Of a DNA stretch of 64,000 nucleotides, positions 3-53,992 are shown piece by piece. The position numbers and the translations under genes are program-made. This stretch comes from an uncultured bacterium (GTDB lineage: Bacteria > Patescibacteriota > Patescibacteriia > UBA9570 > XYC2-FULL-38-9): the NCBI GenBank assembly GCA_937996685.1, contig CALKUP010000001.1:117571-181570 (forward strand), in the 5' to 3' direction. The stretch's first letter is position 1; each line of letters opens with the position of its first letter. The notes beneath the pieces were generated by a model. It was not told where the DNA came from and made no database searches. It saw nothing but the letters and a program-made list of their open reading frames with translations.

Positions 3-455
3 TTGCCTGCACTGGCCGGCCTCCTGAATGTCGAATGTCAGCGAGTGCCGGCAAGGACTGCGTCGTCGCTGCGCTTCGTGATCGACTTTGACTACGCTGT
101 CACGGCCGGTGAGATCAACCGTGTTTTCGCGGATTTCGCGCAACATAACCCGGACTTGATGCACTTCGAACCGATCCCTGACGATCCTCAAGACAAGTCG
201 CTGTGGAGGCACAGTGGTCACTGCGTCGATCAGCGGTTCTGCGTCTACGTCGACGGACGTTTGACGCAGGTGATACGCCAGGGCAAGAGCGTGGTTGTTA
301 CGGCCTTTTATGACAACCGCGTGGGCTATACGTGGCAGGCGCTCCGCGTCGCCGACTTCTGGGCGGGCAAGCGGCTGGAGCTGGAGGGGCGTGGACTCGC
401 TCTCGAAGAGGTCGGACAGACCTACCCCAGTGCTCGTTCTCAACAACGAGAATAG
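3..455 (+). CDS. Hypothetical protein in GC-rich island A. The 5' end may be truncated by the window edge.
   Basis: The 150-aa ORF runs to the window start. Its GC-rich codon usage is unlike the backbone. No family was recognised. Confidence 0.3.
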   Translation: MPALAGLLNVECQRVPARTASSLRFVIDFDYAVTAGEINRVFADFAQHNPDLMHFEPIPDDPQDKSLWRHSGHCVDQRFCVYVDGRLTQVIRQGKSVVVTAFYDNRVGYTWQALRVADFWAGKRLELEGRGLALEEVGQTYPSARSQQRE

Positions 456-478
456 TCACTGCTTCTCAACGAACCGTA

Positions 479-568
479 CCCTCTCGGAGGCGATAGACAT
501 GCAACACACAGGTATCAACCCTGTACACATGTTAATCGCTTTCGAGACGCTTTTCATTGTGAATAATC
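479..568 (+). repeat. Copy 1 of a ~90-bp imperfect direct repeat (copy 2 at 1094-1183). It sits just downstream of ORF 3..455 and contains a GGAGG SD plus a small ORF at 499..573 (MQHTGINPVHMLIAFETLFIVNNH).
   Basis: The string cctctcggaggcgatagacatgcaacacacaggtatcaaccctgtacacatgttaatcgctttcgagacgcttttcattg recurs with about 5 transitions at 1094. GGAGG lies 8 nt upstream of the ATG. Confidence 0.7.
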
Positions 569-675
569 ATTGATTGTTCATAGCGAATAGTGAAATGGTC
601 TCTATATAATGAACACAATGAGGCTGAATATATTGCCTTGTTTATATTAACAAAACACTGTATGTTTTTTATAGA

Positions 676-1074
676 TTGTACCTTGGAGGTAGCGTGAAGC
701 AACCGACTGTGGATGAGTGCCAGTGGGCAATCCGGATGTTCAGCTGTAAGGAGTCTGATCGCTCGAAGCAGAAATGGCAGGAGCTCTTCCGCTGGTTCGA
801 GGAGGTGACGGATCAGTACAGGGGAGATCAAGAAATGGCCGAATGGGGGGAAAGGATCGCACGGTCCCTCCATCTGGAAGAAGGCCTGACTGAGCACCGC
901 CTCTGGCTCAAGATCTGTCAGGTGCTGTTGGCTAGAGCTGAAGAGTACTGGAAGGCTTTTGATGAAGCTAACCAGGCGTATCGGGGTAGTCCGCGGCGAA
1001 GGCTCCGGGATCAGTTGGGTCCCGGAGGTCGGGTCCTCCGACTGAATCAGATGTGGGAGCTGCTTAACAGGTAA
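676..1074 (+). CDS. Hypothetical protein in GC-rich island A. The start may instead be the GTG at 694, which follows a GGAGG.
   Basis: 132-aa ORF with GC-rich codons. The sequence ggaggtagcGTG lies at 685-696. It is followed immediately by repeat copy 2. Confidence 0.35.
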   Translation: MYLGGSVKQPTVDECQWAIRMFSCKESDRSKQKWQELFRWFEEVTDQYRGDQEMAEWGERIARSLHLEEGLTEHRLWLKICQVLLARAEEYWKAFDEANQAYRGSPRRRLRDQLGPGGRVLRLNQMWELLNR

Positions 1075-1093
1075 AAGATACGCAGCAACACGT

Positions 1094-1183
1094 CCCCTCG
1101 GAGGCGATAGACATGCAATACACAGGCATCAACCCTGTACACATGTTAATCGCTTTCGAGACGCTTTTCATTGCGGATAATGC
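1094..1183 (+). repeat. Copy 2 of the ~90-bp direct repeat. It includes a small ORF at about 1113..1211 (MQYTGINPVHMLIAFETLFIADNAVLSLVKCE) behind a GGAGG SD.
   Basis: About 94% identical to 479-568. The small ORF and SD are conserved, and the differences are mostly transitions. Confidence 0.7.
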
Positions 1184-1356
1184 TGTATTATCCTTAGTGA
1201 AATGCGAATAGATGACTTGTCCCCAGGATGTGCATAACAATGGGGATAACGTGTAAAAAAGGTGGAGAAGAAGGCAGTGTGATTTATACACAAAGGATAA
1301 AAAAGTGACTAAAATCAGCTCTTTTTACAGATATTGACAAATTTTGTAGTTATGCA

Positions 1357-1385
1357 TTGACAGTTATGCACAAAATGCGTATAAT
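1357..1385 (+). promoter_or_regulatory. Sigma70-type promoter (TTGACA-17-TATAAT) upstream of the rpoB leader.
   Basis: ttgaca at 1357-1362, a 17-nt spacer, and tataat at 1380-1385. A second ttgaca sits at 1335. It lies about 300 nt upstream of the rpoB ATG in an AT-rich leader. Confidence 0.5.
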
Positions 1386-1686: not shown

Positions 1687-4600
1687 ATGCCCAAACAAGC
1701 GCAATCACCTGCCACAACAGTGGCACACACTGACCCGGTAACCGGTCGTCTGTACTTTACTGATCCAAGTGAAGCAACAGAAATGCCAAATCTGATTGAA
1801 TCCCAAAAGGCTTCATATGATTGGTTTTTGGAAAAAGGTCTTCGTGAGTTATTTGATGAAGTAACACCAATCACTGATTTTTCTGATCGTGATTTAGAGT
1901 TGCATTTCATGGACTATTATCTTGATGAGCCACGATTTGACGAAGTAACAGCAAAAGCGAAGAATTTGACGTTTGAAGCAGCGCTTCGTGTCAACACAAA
2001 GCTCGTCAACAAGCGATCAAATGAAATTAAAGAACAAGAAGTCTTTTTGGGCGACTTTCCATTGATGACTGATCGCGGAACGTTCATTATTAATGGTATT
2101 GAACGTGTTGTTGTTTCACAGCTCATCCGTTCAGCTGGTGTGTTTTTCACTTCAAATTTCTTGAAAGGAAACTTTTACTACGGTGCAAAAATTATTCCAA
2201 ACCGTGGTGCGTGGCTTGAAGTTGAAACAAATCATGACAATGTGATCTATGTAAAAGTAGACCGTAAACGGAAAGTAGCGATTACTGCATTGTTACGTGC
2301 TTTTGGGTACAGCACAGATGAAGAAATCATGGAATTGTTCAAAGATGTTGATACAAATCCAAACAATCAATACATTGCTGCGACATTAGAAAAAGATATT
2401 TCAAAAAACGAAGCAGAAGGTTTGAAAGAAGTGTACAAACGTATTCGTCCAGGTGATCTCGCGACAGTTGATAACGCTCGTTCATTAATTCACGCAATGT
2501 TCTTCAACTTCGATCGTTATGATTTTGGTCGCGTTGGTCGATACAAATTGAACAAACGTTTTGGATTTGATGATGTAGAAAATATTCCAGATAACCGTGT
2601 ATTGCGTCGTGAAGACATTGTTGCAATCATTTCTGAAATCATTCGTTTGAACAATAGCCAAGAACAACCAGATGATATTGACCATCTTGGAAATCGCCGT
2701 ATTCGTGCCGTTGGTGAATTAGTACAAAACAAATTCCGCATTGGACTTTCACGTATGGAACGCATTGTGAAAGATCGTATGTCAACGAAAGATGTTGAAA
2801 CACTCACTCCTGGTGTGTTGATTAACGCTCGTCCAGTCATTGGTGCAGTGAAAGAATTTTTCATGAGTTCACAGCTCTCACAATTCATGGACCAAACAAA
2901 TCCACTGGCAGAACTTGAACATAAACGTCGTTTGAATGCGATGGGTCCGGGCGGTCTATCTCGTGAACGCGCAGGTTTTGAAGTTCGTGATGTACATCGT
3001 ACTCATTATGGTCGTATTTGTCCGATTGCGACTCCTGAAGGTCCAAATATTGGTCTCGTTGGTCACATGAGTTCATTTGCGCGTATTAATGATTTCGGTT
3101 TCCTCGAAACTCCATTCCGCAAAGTCGTCAAAGAAAAAGATGGTCGGATGCGAGTGACTGATGAAATTGTCTATCTTGATTCATTCGAAGAAGAAAAAAG
3201 TACAACAACAGCTGCAACAACACAGATTGATGCTGATGGGTATTTCCTCGTTGAAAAAGCGGAAGTGCGTCACCACATGCAACCGACAATTATGGATGTC
3301 ACAGAAATTGAATACATGGACGTGTCTCCAAAACAAATCATTTCTATCTCAACAGCCTTGATTCCATTCTTGGAACATAATGATGCGGTTCGTGCATTGA
3401 TGGGTACAAACATGCAACGCCAAGCAGTTCCAACCATTAAACCACAAGCACCGATCGTCGGAACAGGCGTTGAACTTCGTGCGGCAAAAGATTCTGGACA
3501 AGTAGCGGTTGCAACCGAAGATGGTGTTGTTGAACACGTTCAAGCGAATAAAGTCACAATCAAAGAAAAATCTGGTGGATACAAAGAATACCATTTGAAA
3601 TCATTCCAACGTTCAAATGCGTCAACATCGATTAACCAAAAACCAATTGTGTCTGTTGGTCAAAAGATCAAAAAAGGTGACATCTTAGCAGACGGTGCGT
3701 CAACCCAAGGCGGTGAGCTCGCGATTGGTCAAAACGTTGTCGTGGCATATATGCCATGGGAAGGGGGTAACTATGAAGATGCGATTTTGCTTTCTGAACG
3801 GTTAGTACAAAATGATCGCTACACATCAATTCATATCGAGGATTACACAATCGATGTGCGTGATACAAAGCTTGGGCCTGAGGTGATCACTCGTGATATC
3901 CCAAATGTGTCTGAAGATAAATTGAAGAACTTGGATGAAAACGGCATTATCCGAATCGGCGCGCAAGTTGGTAGTGGTGACATCTTGGTTGGAAAAATTA
4001 CTCCAAAAGGTGAAACAGAATTGTCAGCAGAAGAAAAATTATTGCGTGCGATTTTCGGTGATAAAGCCAAAGATGTAAAAGATAGTTCATTGTATCTATC
4101 ACATGGTGAACACGGAAAGGTTGTTGATGTAAAAATCTTCAGTAAAGAAAAAGGTGATAAATTGCCAGCTGGTGTGACACAAAGTATTCAAATCAGTATT
4201 GCACAACTGCGTAAAATCCAAGTTGGTGACAAAATGGCTGGACGTCATGGAAACAAAGGTGTTATCTCACGTATTGTTCCAGTTGAAGACATGCCATATC
4301 TCGCTGACGGAACACCAGTTGATATCATTTTGAACCCACTCGGTGTCGTGTCTCGTATGAACTTGGGTCAAATTTTGGAAGCCCATCTCGGTCTTGCGGC
4401 TCGTAGTCTCGGTTACACTGTTGCAACACCGCCATTTGCCGGCATTCCAGCAGAAGTGATTCGTGATGAATTAGAAAAAGCTGGTTTCCCACGTGAAGGT
4501 CGAATCCCTCTACATGATGGTCGTACTGGTGAAAAGTTTGATCAACTCGTGATGTGTGGTGTGTCATACATGTTGAAATTGAATCACATGGTTGAAGACA

Positions 4601-5049
4601 AGATCCATCAACGTTCAATTGGGCCATACAGTCTTGTGACACAACAACCTCTCGGTGGTAAAGCACAATTTGGTGGACAACGTTTCGGAGAAATGGAAGT
4701 GTGGGCGTTGCAAGCATATGGCGCGGCATACACATTGCAAGAAATGTTGACAATTAAATCCGATGATGTTCCAGGTCGTTCAAAAGCATACGAAAGTATC
4801 ATTAAGAGCGAGCCGATCCGAATGCAAAATGTTCCAGAATCATTCAATGTCTTAGTTCGAGAATTGAAAGGCCTCGCCCTTGATGTCGAATTATTGAATG
4901 ATGACGGCGAAGCAATTGATGACCTTGAAGACAAGCCGAAATATGTTGCGCCACCGGAAGCAGCGAACGAATATTCTGAAGATGAAGGTATCATCAAAGT
5001 TGATCGGGACGCTGATATCGATGAGCCCGCTGAAGACGACTTGAAATAA
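1687..5049 (+). CDS. rpoB: DNA-directed RNA polymerase beta subunit.
   Basis: 1120 aa. It carries the hallmark rifampicin-region and catalytic motifs ([45 protein letters not shown]) and is followed directly by rpoC. Confidence 0.97.
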
Positions 5050-5075: not shown

Positions 5076-8000
5076 ATGTCATTTTACGAAAATACAACTC
5101 GCGTCGCTGATTTTTCTGCCATTCGATTGAAACTCGCGTCGCCAGAAGAAATCCGTAGTTGGTCCCACGGGGAAGTGATTCGTCCGGAAACAATTAACTA
5201 CCGAACGCAAAAACCAGAAAAAGATGGTTTGTTCTGTGAAAAGATTTTTGGTCCGTCAAAGGATTGGGAATGTTATTGTGGAAAATACAAACGGATTCGT
5301 TATAAAGGAATCGTTTGTGATAAGTGTCATGTTGAAGTGACACGTGCTGTTGTGCGTCGTGAACGCATGGGGCACATTAACCTTGCAGCTCCAGTATCAC
5401 ACATCTGGTTCTTGCGTGGCGTGCCAAGTAAAATCGGTTTGTTGTTGAACTTGTCAGCTCAAGCGTTAGAAAAAGTTGTGTACTTTGCAAACTTTATCGT
5501 GACTGATGTCAACGAAGAATTGCGAACACAAACATTGGAACAAGTAGAACAAGAACTTGATCAAAAGAAAAAGCAGATCAAAGCAGACGCAACAGCAAAA
5601 GTTGCTGAAGTGAAAAAACGTCGTGAAGTTGCGACAAAAACTGCCGGCGGTAAATTGTCTGCAAAAGAAGATCAAGCGTTTGAACAAGAATTGGTCAATC
5701 TGTCTGTCATGCGTGACGAACAATTGAAAGATTTGGATGACGCTGCATCTGTTGCAACCAAAGAATTGCGCACATTGATGGTGCATCAAATTTTGTCTGA
5801 AAGTGAATACTACGACATGTCATTGAAATACGGTCACGTGTTCGATGCTGGTATTGGTGCAGAAGCAGTGAAAACATTGCTTGAGCGTATTGATTTGGCA
5901 GAAATGCAAACAGCGCTTGAAGCAGAGTTACTCACAGCAACAAAGAACCAATCAAGTCGTGTGTTGCGTCGTTTGAAATTAACAAAGAACTTGATCAAAA
6001 ACAGTTTGCGTCCTGAATGGATGATCATGGATGTGATTCCAGTGATCCCACCAGACATTCGTCCAATGGTGCAATTGGATGGTGGTCGTTTCGCTGCATC
6101 TGATTTGAACGATCTCTATCGTCGTGTGATTAACCGTAACAACCGTTTGAAACGTTTGAAAGAATTGAATGCACCAGAAGTGATTCAACGAAATGAAAAA
6201 CGTATGTTGCAAGAAGCGGTTGATGCATTGATTGATAACTCTGCGCGTCACGGAAAAACTGTGACATCTTCAACTGGTCAAAAACGCCAATTGAAATCAA
6301 TGGCTGACATGTTGAAAGGGAAACAAGGTCGTTTCCGTCAAAACTTGCTCGGTAAACGTGTTGATTATTCTGGTCGTTCAGTTATCGTCGTCGGTCCACA
6401 TTTGAAACTCTACCAATGTGGTTTACCAAAACGTATGGCGCTTGAATTGTTCAAATCATTCGTGATTGCGAAATTGATTGAACGCGAATATGTCTACAAC
6501 GTTCGTAGTGCAAACCGCTTCATCGAATCAGATCGTCCAGAAGTGTGGGACATTCTCGAAGAGGTGACAATGGACGCAACTGTTCTCTTGAACCGTGCTC
6601 CAACCCTCCATCGTCTTGGTATTCAAGCTTTCCAACCAATCTTGATTGAAGGTAAAGCGATCCAAGTGCATCCACTCGTCTGTCCAGCGTTTAATGCTGA
6701 CTTTGATGGTGACCAAATGGCTGTTCACGTTCCTCTTTCAACAGAGGCTCGTCAAGAAGCAAAAGATTTGATGCTCGCGTCACATAACTTGCTCAAACCA
6801 GCAACTGGTGAACCGATTGTGACCCCATCACAAGACATTGTCCTTGGTTCATATTACCTCACAGTCATGCGCGACAAAGAAGAGGATGACAAACGTCATC
6901 TTGCATTCGCGTCTATCGAAGAAGCATTATTTGCACAACAAGTTGGTCGTATCCATTTGCAAGATCCTATTACTGTAAAAATGGACGGCGCTATTGTTCA
7001 AACAACAGCTGGTCGTATTATTTTCAACAGTATCTTGCCTGAAGTGCAACGCTTCATGAATACGGTTGTTGATAAAAAAGTTTTGAAAGACATCATTGCT
7101 GAATGTTTAGCAGTGTCTGGTCCTGATACAACAGTGAAATTGTTGGATGATGTAAAAGATGTTGCGATTGAATACATTACAAAATCTGGTATCTCATGGG
7201 GTATGGATGACGTGATGGTTCCAGAAGCAAAAGCTGGTTTGATTCACGCTGCAAATGTGAAAGTTGAAGAAATTCAACACAACTACATGATGGGTCTTCT
7301 CACTGAAGAAGAACGTCGTGCGAAAGTTGTTGAAGTATGGACACAAACAAAAGAAGTGATCACTGACGAAGTGCAAAAAACATTGCCAGTGAAAGGCTCA
7401 GTGTTTGCCATGATTGACTCTGGTGCTCGTGGTTCATGGGGTCAAACAACTCAGATGATGGGTATGAAAGGTCTCGTGATTAACCCGTCTGGTGAAACAA
7501 TCGAATTGCCAGTCAAGGCGTCCTTTAAAGAAGGGTTCGATGTATTGGAATACTTTATTTCAACGCATGGTGCTCGTAAAGGTTTAACTGATACCGCGCT
7601 TCGTACGGCGAATGCTGGATACCTGACTCGTCGTTTGGTTGATGTTGCCCAAGATGTTGTTGTTGCAACAGAAGATTGTGGAACAGAACACGGCTTCGAA
7701 ATCACACAAACAGAATCTGAAGCAATGAACGAAACATTGCAAAATCGTTTGTGGGGTCGTATGCTCGCGAAAGATCTTCTTGATACAAAAGGTAAAATTG
7801 TCTTTGTAAAAGGAACCTTGATCCAAGCAGCTGAAATGGAAGTGTTGAAAAAAGCTGATATCGAAACAGCGGTGATCCGTTCAGTTCTCGCGTGTCGCCA
7901 AGACCGTGGTGTGTGTCAGTTCTGTTATGGTTTCGATCTATCAAACAATCGACTTGCTGAACTTGGAACAGCTGCCGGTGTTATGGCCGCGCAATCCATT

Positions 8001-8990
8001 GGTGAACCTGGAACACAGCTGACGATGCGTACCTTCCATACTGGTGGTGTTGCAGGAGCTGATATTACACAAGGTTTGCCTCGTGTTGAAGAATTGTTTG
8101 AAGCCCGTCAATTGAAACGCTCAGCAATTGTTGCCGATGTTGATGGTCAAGTACGAGATATCGTGAAAGAAAACGGACAATACATCATCAATGTTGCATA
8201 CACTGCAGATGTTGAAGAAAAATATACCGTCAAAAAAGCAGACAAATTACACATTGCTGATGGCGATGCAGTGAAAAAAGGCCAAGCGTTGTTTGATAAC
8301 GCAGATGGTACAGTGAAAGCTCGTATTGCTGGTAAAGTGAAGATTGATAAAACAAAAATCTCACTCTACGGTTCAGAAGAAAAAATCCGTGAATACCCAG
8401 TTGTTCCAGGATATAGTGTGTGGGTTGCGGCTGGTGAAACAATTGTTGCTGGTCAACAGTTAACAGAAGGTTCTCTCGACTTATATGAATTGCAAGCGTT
8501 GCAAGGCATCGAAGCTGTACAAAAATACATCATTAAAGAAATTCAATATGTATACAGCTCTCAAGGTCAAAACTTGAATGACAAGCATATTGAGGTGATT
8601 ATCCGCCAAATGCTTGCTCGTTTCAAAGTCTTGGATCCAAAGGGAACTGACCTCGTGACTGGAGATGTTGTGTCTCGTGCAGCACTTGGAACAGCAAATG
8701 TTGAAGCTGGTAAAGGAAAAGAAGCGCTTGTAGAACCAGTATTACTCGGTATTACAAAAGCATCTTTGACAGTCGATTCATTCTTGTCAGCAGCGTCTTT
8801 CCAAGAAACAGCGCGTATCTTAATTGATGCAGCGGTTTCCGGAAAAGTTGATAACCTCAGAGGTTTGAAAGAAAACGTTATTATCGGAAAATTGATCCCA
8901 GTTGGAACAGGTTTCCGTGCGCGTTTGAAAGATGCTGAAGCAGCAGAAGCTGCTGCAAAAGCAAGTGAAACAGAAGAAGTTGCGTCGTAA
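5076..8990 (+). CDS. rpoC: DNA-directed RNA polymerase beta' subunit.
   Basis: 1304 aa. It has the N-terminal zinc-finger cysteines (CYCGKYKRIRYKGIVCDKC), the NADFDGD catalytic motif and the typical RpoC C-terminus. Confidence 0.97.
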   Translation: MSFYENTTRVADFSAIRLKLASPEEIRSWSHGEVIRPETINYRTQKPEKDGLFCEKIFGPSKDWECYCGKYKRIRYKGIVCDKCHVEVTRAVVRRERMGHINLAAPVSHIWFLRGVPSKIGLLLNLSAQALEKVVYFANFIVTDVNEELRTQTLEQVEQELDQKKKQIKADATAKVAEVKKRREVATKTAGGKLSAKEDQAFEQELVNLSVMRDEQLKDLDDAASVATKELRTLMVHQILSESEYYDMSLKYGHVFDAGIGAEAVKTLLERIDLAEMQTALEAELLTATKNQSSRVLRRLKLTKNLIKNSLRPEWMIMDVIPVIPPDIRPMVQLDGGRFAASDLNDLYRRVINRNNRLKRLKELNAPEVIQRNEKRMLQEAVDALIDNSARHGKTVTSSTGQKRQLKSMADMLKGKQGRFRQNLLGKRVDYSGRSVIVVGPHLKLYQCGLPKRMALELFKSFVIAKLIEREYVYNVRSANRFIESDRPEVWDILEEVTMDATVLLNRAPTLHRLGIQAFQPILIEGKAIQVHPLVCPAFNADFDGDQMAVHVPLSTEARQEAKDLMLASHNLLKPATGEPIVTPSQDIVLGSYYLTVMRDKEEDDKRHLAFASIEEALFAQQVGRIHLQDPITVKMDGAIVQTTAGRIIFNSILPEVQRFMNTVVDKKVLKDIIAECLAVSGPDTTVKLLDDVKDVAIEYITKSGISWGMDDVMVPEAKAGLIHAANVKVEEIQHNYMMGLLTEEERRAKVVEVWTQTKEVITDEVQKTLPVKGSVFAMIDSGARGSWGQTTQMMGMKGLVINPSGETIELPVKASFKEGFDVLEYFISTHGARKGLTDTALRTANAGYLTRRLVDVAQDVVVATEDCGTEHGFEITQTESEAMNETLQNRLWGRMLAKDLLDTKGKIVFVKGTLIQAAEMEVLKKADIETAVIRSVLACRQDRGVCQFCYGFDLSNNRLAELGTAAGVMAAQSIGEPGTQLTMRTFHTGGVAGADITQGLPRVEELFEARQLKRSAIVADVDGQVRDIVKENGQYIINVAYTADVEEKYTVKKADKLHIADGDAVKKGQALFDNADGTVKARIAGKVKIDKTKISLYGSEEKIREYPVVPGYSVWVAAGETIVAGQQLTEGSLDLYELQALQGIEAVQKYIIKEIQYVYSSQGQNLNDKHIEVIIRQMLARFKVLDPKGTDLVTGDVVSRAALGTANVEAGKGKEALVEPVLLGITKASLTVDSFLSAASFQETARILIDAAVSGKVDNLRGLKENVIIGKLIPVGTGFRARLKDAEAAEAAAKASETEEVAS

Positions 8991-9107: not shown

Positions 9108-10769
9108 ATGAGCATTCCAGCACAACAATCCGAATCACTGGTTTCTGAACTACAAAGCGTGCTTGCAAAAATTATTGCGGAAACAAATGGTATCGCCTTG
9201 CGCAGTACCCTTGATTTATTGCAACAATCACCGGTTGATGCATTTTCTTCCGATGCGCACCGTGCAATTGATGAGTTTTCTAAACTTCTAACAGCATTTC
9301 AAATTCGCCACGTTCCTATTGAGCAAGTCCTTGAGCATCCGTTTGCAGAGGCGTTATTTAATTATTTTCACGATTTCGGACTGCATTTTCAAGAGCACCA
9401 CACGCATTTGACCGGCGCGCTTGATGAGTCATTTGTGTTTCCGCGATTGCAAGAGGCGCTTGCAGGGCCGCACGGCGCGCAAATTGCCGAGCAAATTCGA
9501 GAAGTGTACGGCATTGATGCGAGTACATTGAAGACACCAGAAGATATCAGCGCGCTGATTCGATTGCGTGATGATGAGTCAGACCAGCCATTTGTGCAGT
9601 ATTTGCGAAAAATGTTGCTCACAAAAGTGGTGCTGACAACCAAGCAAGCGCATCACGACGCGGCATATCATATGGCAGAGAGGTTGTGGAATGAAGCCAA
9701 TGTTGGGTTTATTCGTTTGAAATGGTCATTTTCTCGCGCAAACTCCACTGGAGCTGCTGAGGAAATTCCTGGAATGGAGCATTTATCGTCTGAAGATATT
9801 ACCGTTGCGCTGTATGAAGGTTTCCGTGATTTTCAATCCAAGCATCCAGGCTTTTCATTTGAACTCGCGCCATCGTTTCGTAAAGAATTAGATTACTTTG
9901 ATACAAGTCGTTTTCAAGACAAGCAAGAAGATATCAATAATCAGGTGAATGAAATTTTAGCGATTATTGATCGTCATCCAGAGCTTGCTGCGGTGATGAC
10001 GTCGGTTGATACGGTTGGAAATGAAATGCATTTTTATAGCAAAGAAAATTACATGGCATTTAAGGCGGCATTTCGAAAATTGCAATTTCGTGGTTTTAAA
10101 ATCCGTAGTCATCACGGCGAAACATGGTACACATTGCGTCGCGGTATCCAATCAGTTGATAATGCGCTCAATATTTGGTCTATTGATGCGGTGGAACATG
10201 GCGTTGCGCTTGGGATTAACCCGAATTATTATTTTCATCGCTTATTTCAAGAAGCGCTTGAATATAACGTTCAACAAAAACCAATCGCTGAAGGAACGAG
10301 TTTGTGGCGTGAATTGTCTGACATGGATTGGCGCTCAGACGGCCATGTACTGACAAAATTATTACAAGGTGACCTATTGTCAGACGAAGATCGTACTGCA
10401 TTTATTAAAACAAAGTTTCACACATCCCGGGAAGTCGAGCGGTATCAACATGATATTTTAAATCGGATGATTGATACTGGGGTTGAATTAGTGTCGCTGC
10501 CATCATCAAACTATAAACTGACAACCCAATTTGGTGATTATAAAGAACATCCATTTTCTTGGTGGGAGAAAAAAGGCATGGAATTGAGTATCGGAACAGA
10601 TAATTATGTCTTGCTCAATTCAAATATTATTCGTGAAATGTTGATTTTATTATTTACTGATCCGGAAGGATTGAAGCTGACAAAATTGCTCATGGTTGCA
10701 ACTGGTGAGCACCGTCGTCCCTATATGAGTAGTGTTTTGTGGGACATGCGTCGCGATAAAGGGATTTAA
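9108..10769 (+). CDS. Adenosine/AMP deaminase-family (metal-dependent amidohydrolase) protein. The ORF-track start at 8991 lies inside the rpoC terminator, so the in-frame ATG at 9108 after the promoter is preferred.
   Basis: Motif order matches the ADA family by eye: HTHLTG (HxH metal site), SHHGETW (HAGE-like), IDAVEHGVAL, and LSIGTDNYVL (TDD-like). At 554 aa it is longer than canonical ADA. Confidence 0.45.
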   Translation: MSIPAQQSESLVSELQSVLAKIIAETNGIALRSTLDLLQQSPVDAFSSDAHRAIDEFSKLLTAFQIRHVPIEQVLEHPFAEALFNYFHDFGLHFQEHHTHLTGALDESFVFPRLQEALAGPHGAQIAEQIREVYGIDASTLKTPEDISALIRLRDDESDQPFVQYLRKMLLTKVVLTTKQAHHDAAYHMAERLWNEANVGFIRLKWSFSRANSTGAAEEIPGMEHLSSEDITVALYEGFRDFQSKHPGFSFELAPSFRKELDYFDTSRFQDKQEDINNQVNEILAIIDRHPELAAVMTSVDTVGNEMHFYSKENYMAFKAAFRKLQFRGFKIRSHHGETWYTLRRGIQSVDNALNIWSIDAVEHGVALGINPNYYFHRLFQEALEYNVQQKPIAEGTSLWRELSDMDWRSDGHVLTKLLQGDLLSDEDRTAFIKTKFHTSREVERYQHDILNRMIDTGVELVSLPSSNYKLTTQFGDYKEHPFSWWEKKGMELSIGTDNYVLLNSNIIREMLILLFTDPEGLKLTKLLMVATGEHRRPYMSSVLWDMRRDKGI

Positions 10770-10779
10770 TACAATTGCC

Positions 10780-12609
10780 ATGAGTACATTTGAACAGCGA
10801 CGAGCGACACCAGTTGGTGAGTCTGCGTCATCTCCTGAAGCGGTTGTTGCTATTCAAAAAGGTTTGCAGCAAGTGCGTGAGATTGAAAAAGCGATTATTG
10901 ATGCGCGGACAGAGGATCAAACAAGTGATATTTCAGGTTTTGCGACTGAATTAGAATCAATCGCCGAAACAGCCGAGAGTCTCTTTGTGTCTGTGGCAGC
11001 TCGTGGGGCATTAGAGCATGTGGTTGCAAATGATATCCCAGCGCTCCGTTTTTTATATTTTAATGCAGGGGACCGAAAGGGGAAATTTCTTGCGACGGCC
11101 AGTGATTATCAAGGTCTTGCGGAGGAGGGTGTGGTTGTTGGAGGAATGTATAATGGCGCAACAGAAGCGTATACGTTGAAAACGTTATTCGATGATCCGC
11201 GTGTGTTGCCGTTTCAAGGCGATCGCTCAACTGAAGAGTGTGTGTTATTGTTTCAAGAAATGCAGCGCCCATTGGTTCGTCGATATCTCGAGAGTCAATT
11301 GAATGTGCGGTTTGCTGATTTGAATGTGCGCGCGCAGTTGCAATGTATTGAGTATTTAGTGAGTGGTGACCGGCAGCTCATAGAAGCACTGTCAACAATT
11401 ACACATCGAGACGGTCTTGAAGCCGCTCAGTTTTTGCAATTATTTTTTTCTTTAACAGAAAGTGTTGCCATGGCTGTGCCGATTATTGAGGCTGGCAGAA
11501 CACTTCCAGTGTCAGAATTGAATGACATTGCCCGCGGATATAACGGTGCAATGCGTGGAATTGAAGCGATTGAACAACGGATTTCCGATGCAATGCATCT
11601 GAAAAATCAGGCAGATGCTTCTGCTGTTGACCGAGTTGATACACGACGTGTTGCGCAGGCTTGGGTGCGTCGTGCAAATCGAGCTCTGCAAAAAAGCTTG
11701 GGAGAACCGGCGCATGTGACGCAGTTATTTCAAGGGATTGAGCGTGATGCCTTCTTTTTTTCAGCACTGCTCACTGAAACACTAAAGCAACAAGCTGGTG
11801 ATTTTTCTTTTGAAGATTTTGTCGGTGTTTCATATGAGCAAATTGATGGCGCAGTTCTTGCGGCAGACGAGATGGGTCTCCGAGATCAATGTCTCGCGAT
11901 TGCTCGAGAGCATTACGCGAAAGCGTCACCAGCGCTGGTTGAGCGATTGCAAGCATTATTATTTCCGCAAGACGAAGCAGGTCAGACGCGTCTCGAACAA
12001 AATCAATTTTCATTTGTGTTACGCAACGGCCGGCTTGAAGCCTTTTTGAGAGCGCAGCCAGCAGCGGATGAGAGTGTGTTTGTCGCAGCGCTGCAAGTGC
12101 ATCCGACGCTCCAAGGTGCGGGCGTTGGCGAAGCACTGCTTGATCGAACAGTTGTGCAATTTGCGAAAGAGCGGCTGGTTCGCGGAACCGTTGTTCCTGA
12201 AATCCAAGCAGGTGTGCATTATGTTGAAACGCTCGGCAATACATTAACTGGTTTTACTGAACCACAGGCAACCGGAACGCCATACGGGTGGTTCACAATG
12301 GAGTTAGATTTACGGCCAGATGCCGCTCGCTATGTATTGCAGTCACCTGAAAAAACATCAGATGTATTAGAGGCTGAATCACGTATCAATCTTGATGAGG
12401 ACGCGATCGCAGACATTCTTACAGAGCGTCCGCAGTATGTTGTGATGCAATACGCAATGCAAACTCCAGAAGATATTCGTGTAATGACAGATCGTGTGCG
12501 GCAGATGTTAGAGACAGGGGAATATCGTGTTGTGCGGATGTTTGGGAGCGCTGCAGATGCAACGCAACGGCTATACGGATTTGAGCGTGTCCCACAAAGC
12601 GAGAAATAG
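10780..12609 (+). CDS. Hypothetical protein. The start is probably the second in-frame Met, MSTFEQ.
   Basis: 609-625-aa ORF with AT-rich native codon usage and no recognisable motifs. Its 3' end overlaps the convergent gene 12571..13383 by 39 nt. Confidence 0.5.
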   Translation: MSTFEQRRATPVGESASSPEAVVAIQKGLQQVREIEKAIIDARTEDQTSDISGFATELESIAETAESLFVSVAARGALEHVVANDIPALRFLYFNAGDRKGKFLATASDYQGLAEEGVVVGGMYNGATEAYTLKTLFDDPRVLPFQGDRSTEECVLLFQEMQRPLVRRYLESQLNVRFADLNVRAQLQCIEYLVSGDRQLIEALSTITHRDGLEAAQFLQLFFSLTESVAMAVPIIEAGRTLPVSELNDIARGYNGAMRGIEAIEQRISDAMHLKNQADASAVDRVDTRRVAQAWVRRANRALQKSLGEPAHVTQLFQGIERDAFFFSALLTETLKQQAGDFSFEDFVGVSYEQIDGAVLAADEMGLRDQCLAIAREHYAKASPALVERLQALLFPQDEAGQTRLEQNQFSFVLRNGRLEAFLRAQPAADESVFVAALQVHPTLQGAGVGEALLDRTVVQFAKERLVRGTVVPEIQAGVHYVETLGNTLTGFTEPQATGTPYGWFTMELDLRPDAARYVLQSPEKTSDVLEAESRINLDEDAIADILTERPQYVVMQYAMQTPEDIRVMTDRVRQMLETGEYRVVRMFGSAADATQRLYGFERVPQSEK

Positions 12610-13383
12610 CGATTTGTGCATTTGCGCGATATGTTCGTGGTGAATCATTGCCGCGGCTGGGGTGTTCGTGTGCAAAACATAAAATGCAACTGTGTCGTTG
12701 TAAATTTCAACTGGTGTGACAAACGGGTATTTTTCCGCGTCTAAAAATTTGCAGGTCGTGTATTCTGGGTTGATTTGTTTCGCGAGCTCTCGAGATTCTG
12801 GCGTGTCTGTGAAAATAATATATTTATGAATCTTCTTCGCAATGCGTTGTTTCATATATTCCGCATTCAGCTCCTCAGCAAAGGCGTTAATGGTTTGGCT
12901 ATTCGCAAAGGTGTAAATAGTATCTTTGGCTTGGAGTGAATCAAAGAGCGCTTCTTTCATTTGCTCTGGGCCTTCATAAAACCGCATGCCTGGTTTTCCG
13001 AGGAGGGTATTGTAATTTCCGGTCAGCTCCCGAATCGTTTCATTCATTTCGCGCACTTGCAGAGCAGTGGACCGTTCTTTTTCTGTAATAAGAGCTGCGA
13101 GATTTTGCGGATGACTACTGCGGTAATAGGCGACACGCCCATCTTTTCGGTGCTCAACTAACCGTTTGGCGCTGAGTTTTTGCAAGGCATCATAAATATT
13201 CGCACGACTCAAAGCAGTCGCTTTTTGTATATTCGGAACAGTGAGCTCGCCCTTATCTTGGAGGAGGAGATAGATAGTGGTTTCCGCAGACGAGAACCCG
13301 AATTCCGTTAAAATAGTGATTGTAGATAGCATAGAATGGAGTATAGCAGAATAATCTTGATTTGTCCAATAATTATCAGACAA
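12571..13383 (-). CDS. TrmB-like HTH transcriptional regulator.
   Basis: The N-terminal winged-HTH region (LLQDKGELTVPNIQKATALSRANIYDALQKLSAKRLVEHRKDGRVAYY) looks like TrmB/ArsR-type regulators. 270 aa. Confidence 0.55.
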   Translation of the reverse strand: MSDNYWTNQDYSAILHSMLSTITILTEFGFSSAETTIYLLLQDKGELTVPNIQKATALSRANIYDALQKLSAKRLVEHRKDGRVAYYRSSHPQNLAALITEKERSTALQVREMNETIRELTGNYNTLLGKPGMRFYEGPEQMKEALFDSLQAKDTIYTFANSQTINAFAEELNAEYMKQRIAKKIHKYIIFTDTPESRELAKQINPEYTTCKFLDAEKYPFVTPVEIYNDTVAFYVLHTNTPAAAMIHHEHIAQMHKSLFLALWDTLKSV

Positions 13384-13442
13384 ATGATTGCTTTAATATT
13401 AGCAAAATATATCAAATATATACACATCTGTCGACAATAGTA

Positions 13443-13471
13443 TTGACAAATTCATCATATCTTGTCATACT
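13443..13471 (+). promoter_or_regulatory. Candidate promoter (TTGACA-17-CATACT) reading toward GC island B.
   Basis: ttgaca at 13443-13448, a 17-nt spacer, and catact at 13466-13471. Confidence 0.35.
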
Positions 13472-13536
13472 ACGTAGTCTTGTGAATCACGGTTTACAAG
13501 ATTGCACATTTCAATAAGAACAGTTTTGTCAAAAAG

Positions 13537-13585
13537 GTTGCAGGACAGAAGTTGGTGACGCTCACCATTTTCCGCCCTGCAACCT
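13537..13585 (+). other. Nested inverted-repeat structure (ggttgcagg...cctgcaacc enclosing ggtgacgctcacc) in the 5' UTR of the island-B gene.
   Basis: Outer 9-bp arms lie at 13537-13545 and 13577-13585. An inner palindrome GGTGA-CGC-TCACC sits between them. It is about 35 nt upstream of the GGAGG/ATG at 13621. Confidence 0.4.
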
Positions 13586-13620
13586 GATGTCTCAGGCTCT
13601 GTATGGGATTTGGAGGTCAC

Positions 13621-14025
13621 ATGACCAACACCGCCACCCCGATGTCCGCATTTGAGACCGTCAGCACCACCGAGGCGCCCGCGTGCGCGTCGCATCCCTT
13701 GACCGAGGGGGTGGTCCCCCACAACGCCAGCCCGCGCGAGCGCGCGTGGGCGGACTGGGTTCTCACCCAGGCCTTCCGCGCGGAGTTCCCGGCCGAAAAG
13801 GGCTGCGGGCAGGGCTACATGAAGAACTTGGGAAATCCCGGGTCGCGCGCGGTTCCGACAAGTGTCCGGACCGTATCTTCCCCGGGCATGACGCAGATCC
13901 GCCTGCTGACGGCGGAAGAGGTCGCTGTCCTGCGTGTCATCTGTGACATGCACGGTTACCCCAGCACCTCAACCAAGGTGCTGGACCCGGGCACCGAAGA
14001 CGCTCGGATCGAGATCCACTACTAG
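13621..14025 (+). CDS. Hypothetical protein in GC-rich island B. The start at the Met preceded by GGAGG is preferred over 13603.
   Basis: ggaggtcacATG gives GGAGG at spacing 4. Its GC-rich codons are unlike the flanking genes. The antisense ORF 13465..13953 is considered a GC artefact. Confidence 0.4.
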   Translation: MTNTATPMSAFETVSTTEAPACASHPLTEGVVPHNASPRERAWADWVLTQAFRAEFPAEKGCGQGYMKNLGNPGSRAVPTSVRTVSSPGMTQIRLLTAEEVAVLRVICDMHGYPSTSTKVLDPGTEDARIEIHY

Positions 14026-14322
14026 GATCTCCGAGCCCGGAGTAGACATCTCCGGATAACGAAACAAAACTGTCTCAATCGGTCGGCGGCGCAATTCTTC
14101 GGAATTCGCGTCGCTGACCTCTTCTTCTTTGCGCAGCTTGTGATCGTTGTAACACAAGGTGAATAAAGAAGCGGAAATTCCGCTGTACTTCTCCGTCTAG
14201 ATTTTTTCAGACAGAAGATATACCTAATATTAGTAATAAAAAATATTTTTTATACACACCGTTATATGCGTGTACGATGATATTTTGTATACTAACGGTT
14301 ATACATTAGTAAGATACTTTTT

Positions 14323-16710: not shown

Positions 16711-16718
16711 TTCTTTCT

Positions 16719-19163: not shown

Positions 19164-19422
19164 TTGATATACTCACAGTTTTGGTGCTTTCGTTGTCGCC
19201 AGCCTCATTGAAGAGGTGCTTGGAACCATCTAATATCACTTAATAATCTATTGACGCATTGCTGCTTTTGTGGCACTGTATTGAGCTTTCTTGCCGCAAG
19301 CAGGAAAGGTGTTCTTTGTCATGATATTTGATCAGGTTCGTGAAGATTGAGAAAAAGTTTCTTTGTTTTCGCGAGCCTGATCAATCCACATGAAGTGGAG
19401 AATATGGCTTATGGAGTTTCCT

Positions 19423-19806
19423 ATGCGCACTGTTTCCTTCCTTGAGCGCCATGATCGCAAGCTTCTCAGCCTCGAAGATCGGCAGTACCTGAGCCAGGTG
19501 TATGAAAATACAAGTACCGCTAGCGATGATTTTTTGCTCGGTTGTATACAGGCTGCGGCTGAAAAGAACGGCCTTAGTTTTGAGCAGGCGGTTGATGTCT
19601 TTGACCGGATAGTTGCCTGGTATAATTACGTAAACATCGACGGGGATGAGCTTGCTCAGATGATCGGAGGTGACATCCTGCGCCTTCTCCGAGAATCTGA
19701 ACAGGAACTCAAGGAGGAAGCCACTACCCTGCGGTGTGTCTTCGGCATGTTCGGCATCTGCGTCGTGTTGTTTGTCGTTTGGTTCATCCGGGTGGTGATT
19801 GGCTAG
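19423..19806 (+). CDS. Small C-terminally membrane-anchored hypothetical protein in the moderately GC-rich island C. The alternative ORF-track start is 19390.
   Basis: GGAG lies 6 nt before the ATG at 19423. The hydrophobic C-terminus is VFGMFGICVVLFVVWFIRVVIG. A near-coextensive antisense ORF (19381..19827, GTG start, no SD) is judged less likely. Confidence 0.35.
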   Translation: MRTVSFLERHDRKLLSLEDRQYLSQVYENTSTASDDFLLGCIQAAAEKNGLSFEQAVDVFDRIVAWYNYVNIDGDELAQMIGGDILRLLRESEQELKEEATTLRCVFGMFGICVVLFVVWFIRVVIG

Positions 19807-19865
19807 TTCCTGCTCGACTTGGTTCACGACGTTCCGCCGCCGCTCTAGACGAGAGCGCGACGCGG

Positions 19866-19909
19866 CAAAAAAAAGAAGAGGTTCGTTATTACAACGCGAC
19901 CTCTTCTTA
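19866..19909 (-). terminator. Rho-independent terminator for guaB (minus strand).
   Basis: A 10-bp stem aagaagaggt / acctcttctt is preceded on the plus strand by an A8 run, which is a T-run on the minus strand. Confidence 0.65.
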
Positions 19910-38302: not shown

Positions 38303-38878
38303 ATGTCGTTTACAGAATATGTCAGATCTGATACACACACCCTCATGTCAACAGCGCTATTACTCACATTATTTGAACAAGAATATGAATCTGTGTATCG
38401 ATTCATCTATTTTCGCGTGTCTCACAAAGAAACCGCAGAAGATCTTGTTTCAGTGATTTTTGAAAAAGCCGTAAAACATATTGATCGTTTTTCGAAGCAG
38501 GAAGGAGCAACGCCGCGTTCATGGCTCTTTACCATTGCTCGCAACACGCTGATTGATCATTACCGTTCGCAAAAATATATTGAACCACTGGATGATCACA
38601 CGGATCTCACAGACGAATCGCATGATGCGCTATTGTCTGACATCGATACGCAGATTGTTATGGAGAAAGTCTTTGAAGTTATTCCGCAATTATCACCGCG
38701 TGGACAAGAGTTGATTTTATTACGGTTCCAAGCTGATTTTTCCAATAAAGAAATTAGTCAGATTACCGGCCTCCATGAAAAAGTTGTCGCATCTGGAATC
38801 AGCAAGGCCATCCGTCGATTACAACAACTCATTATAGAATCCAAACAACAACCATCCATTGAAGAATCTCTTTTATGA
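38303..38878 (+). CDS. ECF-type sigma-70 family RNA polymerase sigma factor (copy 1).
   Basis: Region 2 is LVSVIFEKAVKHIDRFSKQEGATPRSWLFTIARNTLIDHYR. Region 4 is LILLRFQADFSNKEISQITGLHEKVVASGISKAIRRL. 191 aa. Confidence 0.8.
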   Translation: MSFTEYVRSDTHTLMSTALLLTLFEQEYESVYRFIYFRVSHKETAEDLVSVIFEKAVKHIDRFSKQEGATPRSWLFTIARNTLIDHYRSQKYIEPLDDHTDLTDESHDALLSDIDTQIVMEKVFEVIPQLSPRGQELILLRFQADFSNKEISQITGLHEKVVASGISKAIRRLQQLIIESKQQPSIEESLL

Positions 38879-41877: not shown

Positions 41878-41883
41878 TTTTTT

Positions 41884-51929: not shown

Positions 51930-52011
51930 AATATCGCATGCATCTGACAGATCCGTCGGGTGTGTGCAACGCATCGAACTGCCCAGCATTGACTGGGTTT
52001 TGGAGTCTCTC

Positions 52012-53864: not shown

Positions 53865-53900
53865 ACCGCGGAAAACTACATGGTTGACCGCGGTTTTTTC
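53865..53900 (+). terminator. Rho-independent terminator after island G.
   Basis: Stem accgcgg / ccgcggt with a 15-nt loop, followed by a T6 run. Confidence 0.6.
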
Positions 53901-53992
53901 TTAGTATTAGCCTCTTAAAACAACTGTTTGATTTTTTTCTTGTATCGTGTTATAATCATTCTATTGTGAGGAGTAAAAATAGATATAAAAAA

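What the first reader, a model, noticed from the sequence alone, without database searches (positions are those of the whole stretch)
479..1211. Conserved ~90-bp element duplicated downstream of two GC-rich ORFs, each encoding an SD-driven small hydrophobic peptide
Two ~94%-identical copies lie at 479-568 and 1094-1183. Each sits immediately 3' of a GC-rich hypothetical ORF (3..455 and 676..1074). Each contains GGAGG, then 8 nt, then an ATG opening a small ORF (MQHTGINPVHMLIAFETLFIVNNH at 24 aa and MQYTGINPVHMLIAFETLFIADNAVLSLVKCE at 32 aa). Substitutions between the copies are mostly transitions, and the peptide is largely conserved. This looks like a repeated gene-plus-small-peptide module. 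Possibilities include a toxin/immunity or polymorphic cassette, a small membrane peptide or leader, or a precursor-peptide family, rather than a simple terminator. The window edge cuts the island, so more copies may lie upstream.
Basis: seen in the sequence. Interest (0 to 1): 0.6.

Follow-up and report, generated by a model that had tools for sequence, protein, structure and literature searches.

The report
Repeated hairpin module bounding acquired genes
The two repeats are real, but they are a non-coding, strand-specific hairpin module that follows each horizontally acquired GC-rich gene inserted upstream of rpoB in a candidate-phylum (Kerfeldbacteria) bacterium; they are not genes for a conserved small peptide.

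Summary
Observation confirmed. Window 480-568 and 1094-1182 are 93% identical, with a 75-nt core at 97%. These are the only two copies in 64 kb, and each follows a GC-rich ORF.

Peptide reading rejected. In the sister genome (L003, RpoB 95% identical) the homologous element keeps only 9 codons before the frame shifts. The GGAGG lies inside a stem. Three of four early codon changes are non-synonymous.

What is conserved is structure. A 66-nt hairpin H1 is followed by a ~45-nt hairpin H2, plus an H3 in some copies. Both H1 and H2 show compensatory changes, and G.U pairs favour the gene-sense strand. There is no Rfam match.

The organism is a Kerfeldbacteria (CPR) bacterium. A relative has murE directly next to rpoB, so this spacer is an insertion site. 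The genes there have GC3 of 0.67-0.83 against 0.32 for core genes, and each ends in one element.

Compared with L003, the window gained a 614-bp unit: an AT-rich leader, orphan ORF2 and one element. The junctions lie inside the near-identical H1 block.

Most likely this is a 3' end hairpin module that also serves as the homology patch where gene modules are recombined in. It fails the attC, canonical-terminator and dispersed-REP tests. An unrelated but analogous array exists in Uhrbacteria. Interest is moderate.

The parts
3..455 (+). 3' part of ORF1, a very divergent GAPDH-like gene with foreign codon usage, cut by the window edge
   Evidence: NCBIfam GAPDH-I E=1.5e-7, far below the family cut-off. 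GC3 is 0.70 against 0.32 for rpoB. Only 25% aa identity to the syntenic GAPDH-like gene of L003. No homologues found.
456..481 (+). 5' flank of element copy 1 (CTTCTCAAC..ACCC)
   Evidence: Gapped identity 0.58 to the L003a flank against 0.41 for copy 2. Conservation with L003 begins immediately after the stop codon.
482..547 (+). H1 of copy 1: 66-nt imperfect hairpin (13-bp basal stem holding GGAGG, 6-bp inner stem holding the ATG, 5-bp apical stem)
   Evidence: RNA fold z = -6.7 on the + strand against -3.1 on the - strand. Pair table against L003a.
548..597 (+). H2 of copy 1 (paired core 548-592)
   Evidence: H2 alignment: 92.6% of cells paired, 6 pairs changed on both sides.
499..573 (+). 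Small ORF 1 (24 aa), judged incidental
   Evidence: Not conserved in L003.
598..693 (+). AT-rich (~30% GC) leader of ORF2 with GGAGG at 685-689
   Evidence: No counterpart in L003.
694..1074 (+). ORF2, 126 aa, GTG start: an orphan, predicted all-helical, with foreign codon usage
   Evidence: GC1/2/3 = 0.62/0.41/0.67. The only database hit is itself, on a 1088-bp ENA contig identical to window 99-1186. AlphaFold pLDDT 48, five helices.
1075..1095 (+). 5' flank of element copy 2
1096..1161 (+). H1 of copy 2
   Evidence: Two differences from copy 1 within the 484-558 core (505 C/T, 513 T/C), both at unpaired positions.
1162..1209 (+). H2 of copy 2
1113..1211 (+). Small ORF 2 (32 aa), judged incidental
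1217..1249 (+). H3 of copy 2; overlaps an rpoB-upstream motif (GTGCATAAC...) shared with other Kerfeldbacteria
   Evidence: Fold. Motif present in L003, L004, L008 and L011.
1357..1385 (+). rpoB promoter TTGACA-17-TATAAT, downstream of the element
   Evidence: The same promoter is readable in L003.
1687..5049 (+). rpoB, the conserved right border of the insertion site

Best explanation
The repeat is a non-coding module of about 125-170 nt: a long hairpin H1, a second hairpin H2 and, in some copies, a third hairpin H3. It sits directly after the stop codon of each horizontally acquired, GC3-rich gene inserted between murE and rpoB in one Kerfeldbacteria lineage. The window has two copies because a 614-bp unit (AT-rich leader + orphan ORF2 + one element) was added next to a resident element. 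The recombination junctions fall inside the near-identical H1 block. Copy 1 keeps the resident left flank and copy 2 keeps the resident right flank.

Inferred mode of action: the module is transcribed as the 3' end of the upstream gene, and its hairpins define or protect that 3' end and insulate the rpoB promoter region. As DNA, the shared module is the homology patch through which gene modules are added or swapped by RecA-type recombination among related Patescibacteria.

Shown: the repeat, the conserved structure, the strand bias, the insertion relative to the sister genome, the foreign codon usage, and the lack of peptide conservation. Inferred: transcription, the 3' end function, and the recombination route.
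For: Structure.
- All four copies fold into the same H1+H2 architecture, with z-scores of -5.4 to -6.7 on the gene-sense strand and -2.3 to -3.2 on the other.
- H1, window against L003a: the left arm plus apex is 37/43 identical and the right arm only 11/24. Above the basal four pairs, 6 of the 7 changed pairs still pair, including GAU/AUC to GGC/GCC.
- H2: 17 pairs, 92.6% of cells paired, 6 pairs changed on both sides. 1 of 500 shuffles reaches the covariation score, and the slid controls give none.
- G.U pairs outnumber A.C mismatches about 17 to 4 on the + strand.

Context.
- L004 has murE directly next to rpoB.
- L003 has murE, NhaD, element b, GAPDH-like gene, element a, rpoB.
- GC3 is 0.67-0.83 in the inserted ORFs and 0.32 in rpoB, rpoC and recA.

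Mosaic pattern.
- 5' flank: copy 1 is closer to L003a (0.58 against 0.41).
- The 120 nt after H2: copy 2 matches L003a (0.58-0.64), while copy 1 does not (the second 60 nt gives 0.10).
- H1 is 0.97 identical between the window copies, but H2 only 0.69.

Other support.
- RecA is encoded in the window.
- Independent analogue: in Uhrbacteria locus L052, three unrelated GC3-rich genes (0.80-0.89) upstream of rpoB are each followed by a 95-105-nt two-hairpin element that is 97-100% identical between copies and ends in a U-tract. The two hairpins also occur singly after native genes in L038 and L046.
Against: - No U-tract follows H1 or H2, and the consensus scan does not call the element a terminator. 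Canonical terminators do exist elsewhere in this genome.
- The left arm of H1 is much more conserved than pairing alone requires. That hints at a sequence-specific ligand or recombination core, which this explanation does not need.
- Only four copies in two genomes are available, so covariation statistics rest on few, related sequences.
- There are no expression data.
- The crossover position rests on two informative sites.
- Sequence upstream of window position 1 is not available.
Confidence: 0.55

Rival explanations
1. The element is a dedicated site-specific recombination site (attC-like or att-like) of a cassette-capture system. A recombinase would recognise the conserved H1 left arm and apex, possibly in folded single-stranded DNA, and insert circular gene+element cassettes.
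For: - A gene-element-gene-element array in one orientation, holding orphan or foreign ORFs of cassette size (614 bp).
- Flank mosaic resembling attL/attR.
- The H1 left arm and apex are 86% conserved while the right arm is 46%.
- The two informative sites (505, 513) are compatible with a crossover in the conserved CAAYACACAGGYATCA core.
- The favoured folding strand matches the leading-strand sequence by GC skew.
Against: - There are no R''/R' AAC...GTT core sites at the base of the hairpin (reading).
- No integrase or transposase was found in the 10 kb upstream in L003 or in any large window ORF.
- With DNA energy parameters there is no strand preference.
- Each module appears to carry its own AT-rich leader rather than being promoterless.
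- Ordinary homologous recombination at a 75-nt identical block explains the same pattern.
Confidence: 0.15
2. H1 is a selfish mobile hairpin (REPIN- or MITE-like) that inserted independently next to pre-existing H2-type hairpins. The repeat would then say nothing about the neighbouring genes.
For: - H1 is 97% identical between the copies while the flanks and H2 are far more diverged.
- H1 is two inverted ~20-nt arms, as in REP doublets.
- Hairpin modules occur singly and in combination in Uhrbacteria.
Against: - Only two copies in 64 kb and two in 21 kb, all within one island.
- No target-site duplication at the H1 edges.
- No Y1/RAYT or other transposase among the ORFs scanned.
- The 5' flank and H2 are homologous in all copies, so the whole unit was duplicated, not H1 alone.
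Confidence: 0.1
3. A small peptide or leader peptide (MQ[HY]TGINPV...) is translated from the GGAGG-N8-ATG inside the element.
For: The SD, spacing, ATG and first 9 codons are conserved between the window and L003a. This coincides with the strongly conserved left arm.
Against: - The frame and sequence diverge after codon 9-10; the products are 24, 32 and 63 aa.
- Among the first ten codons there is 1 synonymous change against 3 non-synonymous.
- The SD and ATG are base-paired.
- L003b has no equivalent ORF.
- The opposite strand is equally open across the same conserved bases.
- The hydrophobic stretch is only about 11 residues and contains a Glu.
Confidence: 0.05
4. The element is a cis-regulatory RNA or small RNA acting on the downstream gene (ORF2, rpoB).
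For: Structured and conserved, with sense-strand bias, and located upstream of ORF2 and rpoB.
Against: - The strong rpoB promoter lies about 150 nt downstream of copy 2, so the element is outside the rpoB leader.
- No Rfam family matches even at E<=10.
- The downstream genes are unrelated to each other (ORF2, rpoB, GAPDH-like gene).
- The constant neighbour is the stop codon of the upstream gene.
Confidence: 0.08

Closest known systems
Integron gene-cassette arrays (attC sites; chromosomal arrays such as Vibrio VCRs)
   Same: An array of mostly orphan ORFs with foreign composition, all in one orientation. Each ORF is followed by a 60-140-nt imperfect-hairpin repeat that is similar within one genome. 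The unit size is about 0.6 kb.
   Different: There are no RYYYAAC/GTTRRRY core sites. The element has two or three hairpins rather than one. No integron integrase, attI or Pc was found. The structure favours the sense strand with G.U pairs (RNA-like). The modules have their own AT-rich leaders.
REP/BIME, ERIC and pneumococcal BOX elements (mosaic extragenic hairpin repeats at gene 3' ends)
   Same: Modular hairpin units (H1, H2, H3) lie in 3' or intercistronic positions and are presumably transcribed. The modules have separate histories. A role in mRNA 3' end stability or attenuation is plausible.
   Different: Those families have tens to hundreds of dispersed copies per genome. Here only four copies are seen, all inside one acquired-gene island. 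There is no sequence similarity and no RAYT gene.
Tandem accretion of integrative elements with duplicated att sites (ICE/CIME accretion, IMEX at dif, tycheposon arrays at tRNA genes)
   Same: Each added module leaves a further copy of the attachment sequence. The two copies are left/right hybrids of the resident and incoming sites.
   Different: The repeated site is not a tRNA gene or dif. No integrase was found. The added units are single genes.
Intercistronic RNase III processing hairpins (e.g. phage T7 early region)
   Same: Long irregular hairpins with internal loops recur after successive genes. They lack U-tracts and would leave a protective 3' hairpin on the upstream mRNA.
   Different: This is purely a structural analogy. 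No cleavage data or sequence relationship exists.
Uhrbacteria two-hairpin terminator repeat (found here in L052, L038, L046)
   Same: GC3-rich genes upstream of rpoB are each followed, directly after the stop codon, by the same two-hairpin element. Identity drops sharply outside the element.
   Different: The sequence is unrelated. The second hairpin there is followed by a U-tract, making it a canonical intrinsic terminator. The two hairpins also occur singly after native genes.

Membership tests
Integron attC site / cassette array | Inverted core sites R'' (RYYYAAC) and R' (GTTRRRY) pairing at the base of the hairpin | tested here: not met
   The base of H1 is UCUCGGAGG/CUUUCGAGA. The only GTT within H1 (GTTAATC, 531-537) lies inside the right arm and has no complementary RYYYAAC. 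Candidate AAC motifs in the 5' flank differ between the copies.
Integron attC site / cassette array | Adjacent intI tyrosine recombinase with attI and Pc | tested here: inconclusive
   No recombinase in the 10 kb upstream of the L003 array (PD-(D/E)XK nuclease, exonuclease, LexA, S8 protease, MurE), nor in any large window ORF scanned. However, the window starts inside the array, so its own upstream side is unseen.
Integron attC site / cassette array | Single imperfect hairpin recombined as a folded bottom strand | tested here: not met
   Two to three separate hairpins. The RNA-parameter z-score favours the top (sense) strand, and DNA parameters show no strand preference.
Intrinsic (Rho-independent) terminator | GC-rich stem followed within 0-2 nt by a U-rich tract | tested here: not met
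   The consensus scan of 1-1800 does not call either copy. H1 is followed by CGCUUUUCAUUG in the window only, and H2 by no U-run. A canonical example exists at about 53868-53900.
REP/BIME/REPIN-type dispersed extragenic repeats | Many dispersed copies per genome and an associated RAYT (Y1 transposase) | tested here: not met
   2 copies in 64 kb and 2 in 21 kb, all in one island. No other hit in 1.43 Mb of Patescibacteria loci. No Y1 transposase domain in the ORFs scanned. Whole genomes were not available.
Small protein / leader peptide gene | Reading frame, length and sequence conserved in homologues; excess of synonymous change; accessible ribosome-binding site | tested here: not met
   Only 9 codons are shared with L003a before the frame changes, and the ORF is absent in L003b. 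1 synonymous against 3 non-synonymous changes. The SD and ATG are paired in H1.
Any curated RNA family (Rfam 15) | Covariance-model match | tested here: not met
   No hit in the element at E<=10 in 1-1800, and none at gathering score in the whole window.
Anti-phage defence / toxin-immunity cassette | ORFs matching known defence, toxin or immunity families | tested here: not met
   PADLOC gave no hits. Pfam and NCBIfam gave only a weak GAPDH C-terminal match for ORF1 and nothing significant for ORF2. ORF2 is an orphan among 1.84 billion representatives.

The most novel reading that the evidence does not exclude
Patescibacteria carry a non-integron gene-cassette system. Structured, lineage-specific hairpin modules at gene 3' ends would act as the attachment or crossover sites at which single foreign genes are captured in tandem in front of rpoB. 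Capture might involve an unidentified recombinase or a single-strand mechanism that recognises the conserved H1 left arm and apex. The parallel array in Uhrbacteria (L052) would be a second instance.
Probability: 0.12. Interest if true: 0.8.

Novelty: new variant of a known kind. Interest (0 to 1): 0.42.

Why it matters
CPR/Patescibacteria have tiny genomes yet exchange genes frequently (PMC12455944 attributes up to 13% of genome length to horizontal transfer, mostly between Patescibacteria). How single genes are slotted in has not been described.

This locus shows, at base resolution, a gene added together with a copy of a structured 3' module next to an essential operon. A second lineage shows the same layout with an unrelated module.

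If general, shared hairpin or terminator modules would act as portable recombination handles and as ready-made expression boundaries for acquired genes. The locus also contributes an uncatalogued structured RNA/DNA motif with covariation support. Finally, it is a caution that an SD-ATG pair inside a conserved hairpin need not be a gene.

Tried and rejected
1. Exact 20-22-mers of the element found nothing except a 1088-bp ENA contig identical to the window. Scanned: viral contigs (3 scans), GTDB species genomes, and JGI/ENA metagenome contigs. The exact-match scans were too strict, since they missed even L003.
2. blastn of the element against the phage and plasmid collections gave no match.
3. 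Homologues of ORF2, ORF1 and the L003 GAPDH-like protein were sought. The results were only ORF2 itself, nothing, and one ordinary GAPDH on a 1.8-kb contig without any element.
4. AlphaFold of ORF2 gave pLDDT 48, too poor for a fold search.
5. Looking up the window's own contig through RpoB failed: not on record.
6. Hairpins after a third GC-rich orphan (14075-14183) scored 19.7 bits with the whole-element model but were not found by the H2 model. They are not counted as a member.
7. A four-way MAFFT/RNAalifold alignment of H1 including L003b was not informative. Homology of L003b rests on H2, on the right arm of H1, and on a 47-nt direct repeat.
8. Resemblances of H1 to dif/Xer sites, DnaA boxes and SOS boxes were considered from memory. 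They were dropped as short, untestable matches, and GC skew shows no origin or terminus here.
9. A possible direct repeat (CCCT.T..AC..AAG) flanking the whole L003 island is too weak to claim.

Full report
**1. The observation**

- The repeat is real. The repeat finder reports 480-594 and 1094-1208 as a two-copy family at a constant 614-nt offset.
- Identity is 93.3% over 480-568 (6 mismatches, 5 of them transitions) and 97.3% over a sharp 75-nt core (484-558). It falls to 61% over 559-597 and to background beyond that.
- The 65-nt core occurs exactly twice in the window, against none expected in shuffles. A covariance model run without filters finds no other clear copy in 64 kb.
- Both upstream ORFs are GC-rich. 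ORF2 more plausibly starts at GTG 694, four bases after a GGAGG.

**2. What is conserved is a fold, not a peptide**

- On the gene-sense strand, each copy folds into two hairpins.
  - H1 (482-547 / 1096-1161) is a 66-nt irregular hairpin. Its basal stem contains the GGAGG and its inner stem contains the ATG.
  - H2 (548-592 / 1162-1206) is a second hairpin of about 45 nt.
  - Copy 2 has a third hairpin, H3 (1217-1249).
- RNA-parameter z-scores are -6.7 and -5.5 on the + strand, against about -3 on the - strand. DNA parameters show no such asymmetry.
- Rfam has no match.

**3. Relatives**

- RpoB identifies the organism as a Candidatus Kerfeldbacteria (Patescibacteria/CPR) bacterium.
- The closest genome held, L003, has an RpoB N-terminus 95% identical. 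It carries one clear homologue of the element (L003a, 9430-9554, 107 bits) in the same place, between a GAPDH-like gene and the rpoB promoter.
- L003 also carries a diverged copy (L003b, 7964-8101) directly after an NhaD antiporter gene one position upstream.
- L003b is tied to the family in three ways: H2 scores 63 bits with the H2 model, a 47-nt direct repeat is 72% identical to L003a, and it has the same H1/H2/H3 fold (z = -5.4 on the + strand, -2.3 on the - strand).

**4. Covariation**

- H1, window against L003a: the left arm and apex are 37/43 identical, but the right arm is only 11/24.
- Above the four basal pairs, 6 of the 7 changed pairs stay paired. This includes two fully compensatory changes (GAU/AUC to GGC/GCC) and several G.U to G-C switches.
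- H2, four copies: 17 pairs, 92.6% of cells paired, and 6 pairs with changes on both sides.
- Only 1 of 500 column shuffles reaches the observed covariation score. Partners slid by 1-3 columns give zero double changes.
- G.U pairs outnumber A.C mismatches about 17 to 4, so the folding strand is the sense strand.
- These statistics rest on four related sequences. They are supportive, not conclusive.

**5. The peptide hypothesis fails**

- The ORF in L003a (63 aa) shares only MQHTGI[N/S]PV with the window peptides before an indel changes the frame.
- L003b has no SD and no related ORF.
- Among the first ten codons there is one synonymous and three non-synonymous differences.
- The two window peptides differ in length and C-terminus precisely where H2 is maintained by compensatory substitutions.
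- The opposite strand is open across the same conserved bases in both genomes (TGL[IM]PV[CY]CM...). Open frames here are therefore a by-product of nucleotide conservation.

**6. Genomic context: an insertion site holding foreign genes**

- In the more distant Kerfeldbacteria L004, murE is followed directly by the rpoB upstream region.
- L011 has a single GC-rich gene on the opposite strand there and no element.
- L003 has murE, NhaD, element b, GAPDH-like gene, element a, rpoB.
- The window has GAPDH-like gene, element 1, ORF2, element 2, rpoB.
- The inserted ORFs have the codon-position signature of genuine genes from a GC-rich source: GC3 of 0.67-0.83 against 0.32 for rpoB, rpoC and recA. 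The leaders between them are about 30% GC.
- The two GAPDH-like genes are only 25% identical even though RpoB is 95% identical. DNA conservation between the genomes starts immediately after their stop codons.
- ORF1 and ORF2 have no relatives in the protein collections searched. They also have no defence, toxin or immunity signal.

**7. How the duplication arose**

- Segment-by-segment comparison gives a mosaic:
  - The 5' flank of copy 1 resembles that of L003a (0.58 against 0.41 for copy 2).
  - The 120 nt after H2 of copy 2 are orthologous to those of L003a (0.58-0.64). Those after copy 1 are not.
  - H1 is 0.97 identical between the two window copies, while H2 is 0.69.
- Between species the divergence is 23% for H1 and about 40% for H2. 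The within-genome identity of H1 is therefore about tenfold too high for a uniform duplication.
- This pattern is what a single crossover, or a conversion tract, within the H1 block produces when a resident element recombines with a related element carried by incoming DNA. The net addition is the 614-bp unit.
- The two informative sites in H1 (505 and 513) are compatible with a crossover between them, but that is very weak evidence.
- RecA is encoded in the window.
- No integrase, transposase or Y1/RAYT domain was found. This covers the large window ORFs scanned and the 10 kb upstream in L003.

**8. What it is not**

- It is not an attC site. There are no AAC/GTT core sites at the hairpin base, it has several hairpins, and the structure favours the sense strand.
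- It is not a consensus intrinsic terminator. There is no U-tract and the scan does not call it. This genome does use canonical terminators elsewhere.
- It is not a dispersed REP-like repeat in the DNA available. No copies were found elsewhere in 64 kb + 21 kb, nor in 1.43 Mb of other Patescibacteria loci.

**9. An independent analogue**

- I looked at other GC-rich islands upstream of rpoB. In Uhrbacteria locus L052, three unrelated genes with GC3 of 0.80-0.89 lie in tandem.
- Each is followed, directly after its stop codon, by a 95-105-nt two-hairpin element that is 97-100% identical between copies. The second hairpin carries a U-tract, so it is a canonical terminator.
- The two hairpins also occur singly after native genes (GC3 about 0.6) in L052, L038 and L046. 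One 50-nt stretch is 100% identical between two genomes.
- The sequence is unrelated to the window element, but the layout is the same. This supports reading such modules as 3' end hairpin units shared among relatives and duplicated whenever a gene is added.
- It fits the report that most transfers into Patescibacteria come from other Patescibacteria (PMC12455944).

**10. Verdict**

- The 'gene plus downstream element' module is supported, and the small-peptide reading is not.
- The best explanation (confidence about 0.55) is a transcribed 3' end hairpin module that bounds acquired genes. It doubles as the homology patch for their recombinational insertion.
- Rival explanations:
  - a dedicated recombination site (0.15);
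  - a selfish mobile hairpin (0.10);
  - a cis-regulatory RNA or small RNA (0.08);
  - a small peptide (0.05).
- One feature is left unexplained: the H1 left arm and apex are conserved well beyond what pairing requires.
- Novelty: a new variant of a known kind (structured repeats at cassette or gene boundaries). Interest is moderate. It would rise sharply if a cassette-capture mechanism were demonstrated.

Noticed in passing
L052 4422-8068 (also L038 7412-7449 and 9250-9299; L046 6433-6467 and 7349-7396): In Uhrbacteria, three unrelated GC3-rich genes upstream of rpoB are each followed by a two-hairpin, U-tract terminator element that is 97-100% identical between copies. The two hairpins also occur singly after native genes, and one 50-nt stretch is 100% identical between two different genomes.
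   Followed up: partly
window 10732-19900: About 9 kb here is absent from sister genome L003, where the adenosine-deaminase-like gene is followed about 60 nt later by IMPDH. The insert holds a GNAT-like 625-aa protein, a TrmB-like regulator, a GC-rich orphan (13603-14025, GC3 0.83) followed by a hairpin cluster (14075-14183), and two large proteins (795 and 814 aa) without significant Pfam domains.
   Followed up: partly
window 51964-53835: A 623-aa ORF with 64% GC (GC3 0.81), Asp/Thr-rich tandem repeats and no Pfam match. It ends in a canonical terminator (about 53868-53900) and is followed by a 1754-aa ORF (53966-59230) with internal 267-nt-spaced repeats.
   Followed up: no
loci L011, L035, L044, L049, L050, L056 (0.5-5 kb upstream of rpoB): GC-rich islands sit immediately upstream of rpoB in several other Patescibacteria, so the rpoB-upstream spacer may be a recurrent landing site for foreign genes. 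Only L011 and L035 were inspected, and neither has the Kerfeldbacteria element.
   Followed up: partly
window 3-455 vs L003 8295-9404: Syntenic GAPDH-like genes are only 25% identical in two genomes whose RpoB is 95% identical. This means either allele replacement or extreme divergence. Both are far below the GAPDH family cut-offs.
   Followed up: partly
window 1357-1385 (L003 about 9701-9729): A perfect TTGACA-17-TATAAT promoter upstream of rpoB is conserved in the sister genome. In this lineage rpoB follows murE rather than rplJ-rplL.
   Followed up: partly
window 38303-40506 and 41368-43527: Two paralogous pairs, each an ECF-type sigma factor plus an unknown protein of about 545 aa (repeat family D7).
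   Followed up: no
window 48909-49469 (-): A histone H1-like (HC2) basic protein gene with internal 66-nt repeats.
   Followed up: no
window 456-557 (-), 1064-1291 (-); L003 9302-9592 (-): An antisense open frame across H1 gives a Cys-rich stretch, TGL[IM]PV[CY]CM..ASE, in both genomes. It was judged a by-product of nucleotide conservation, because the starts and ends are not conserved.
   Followed up: partly
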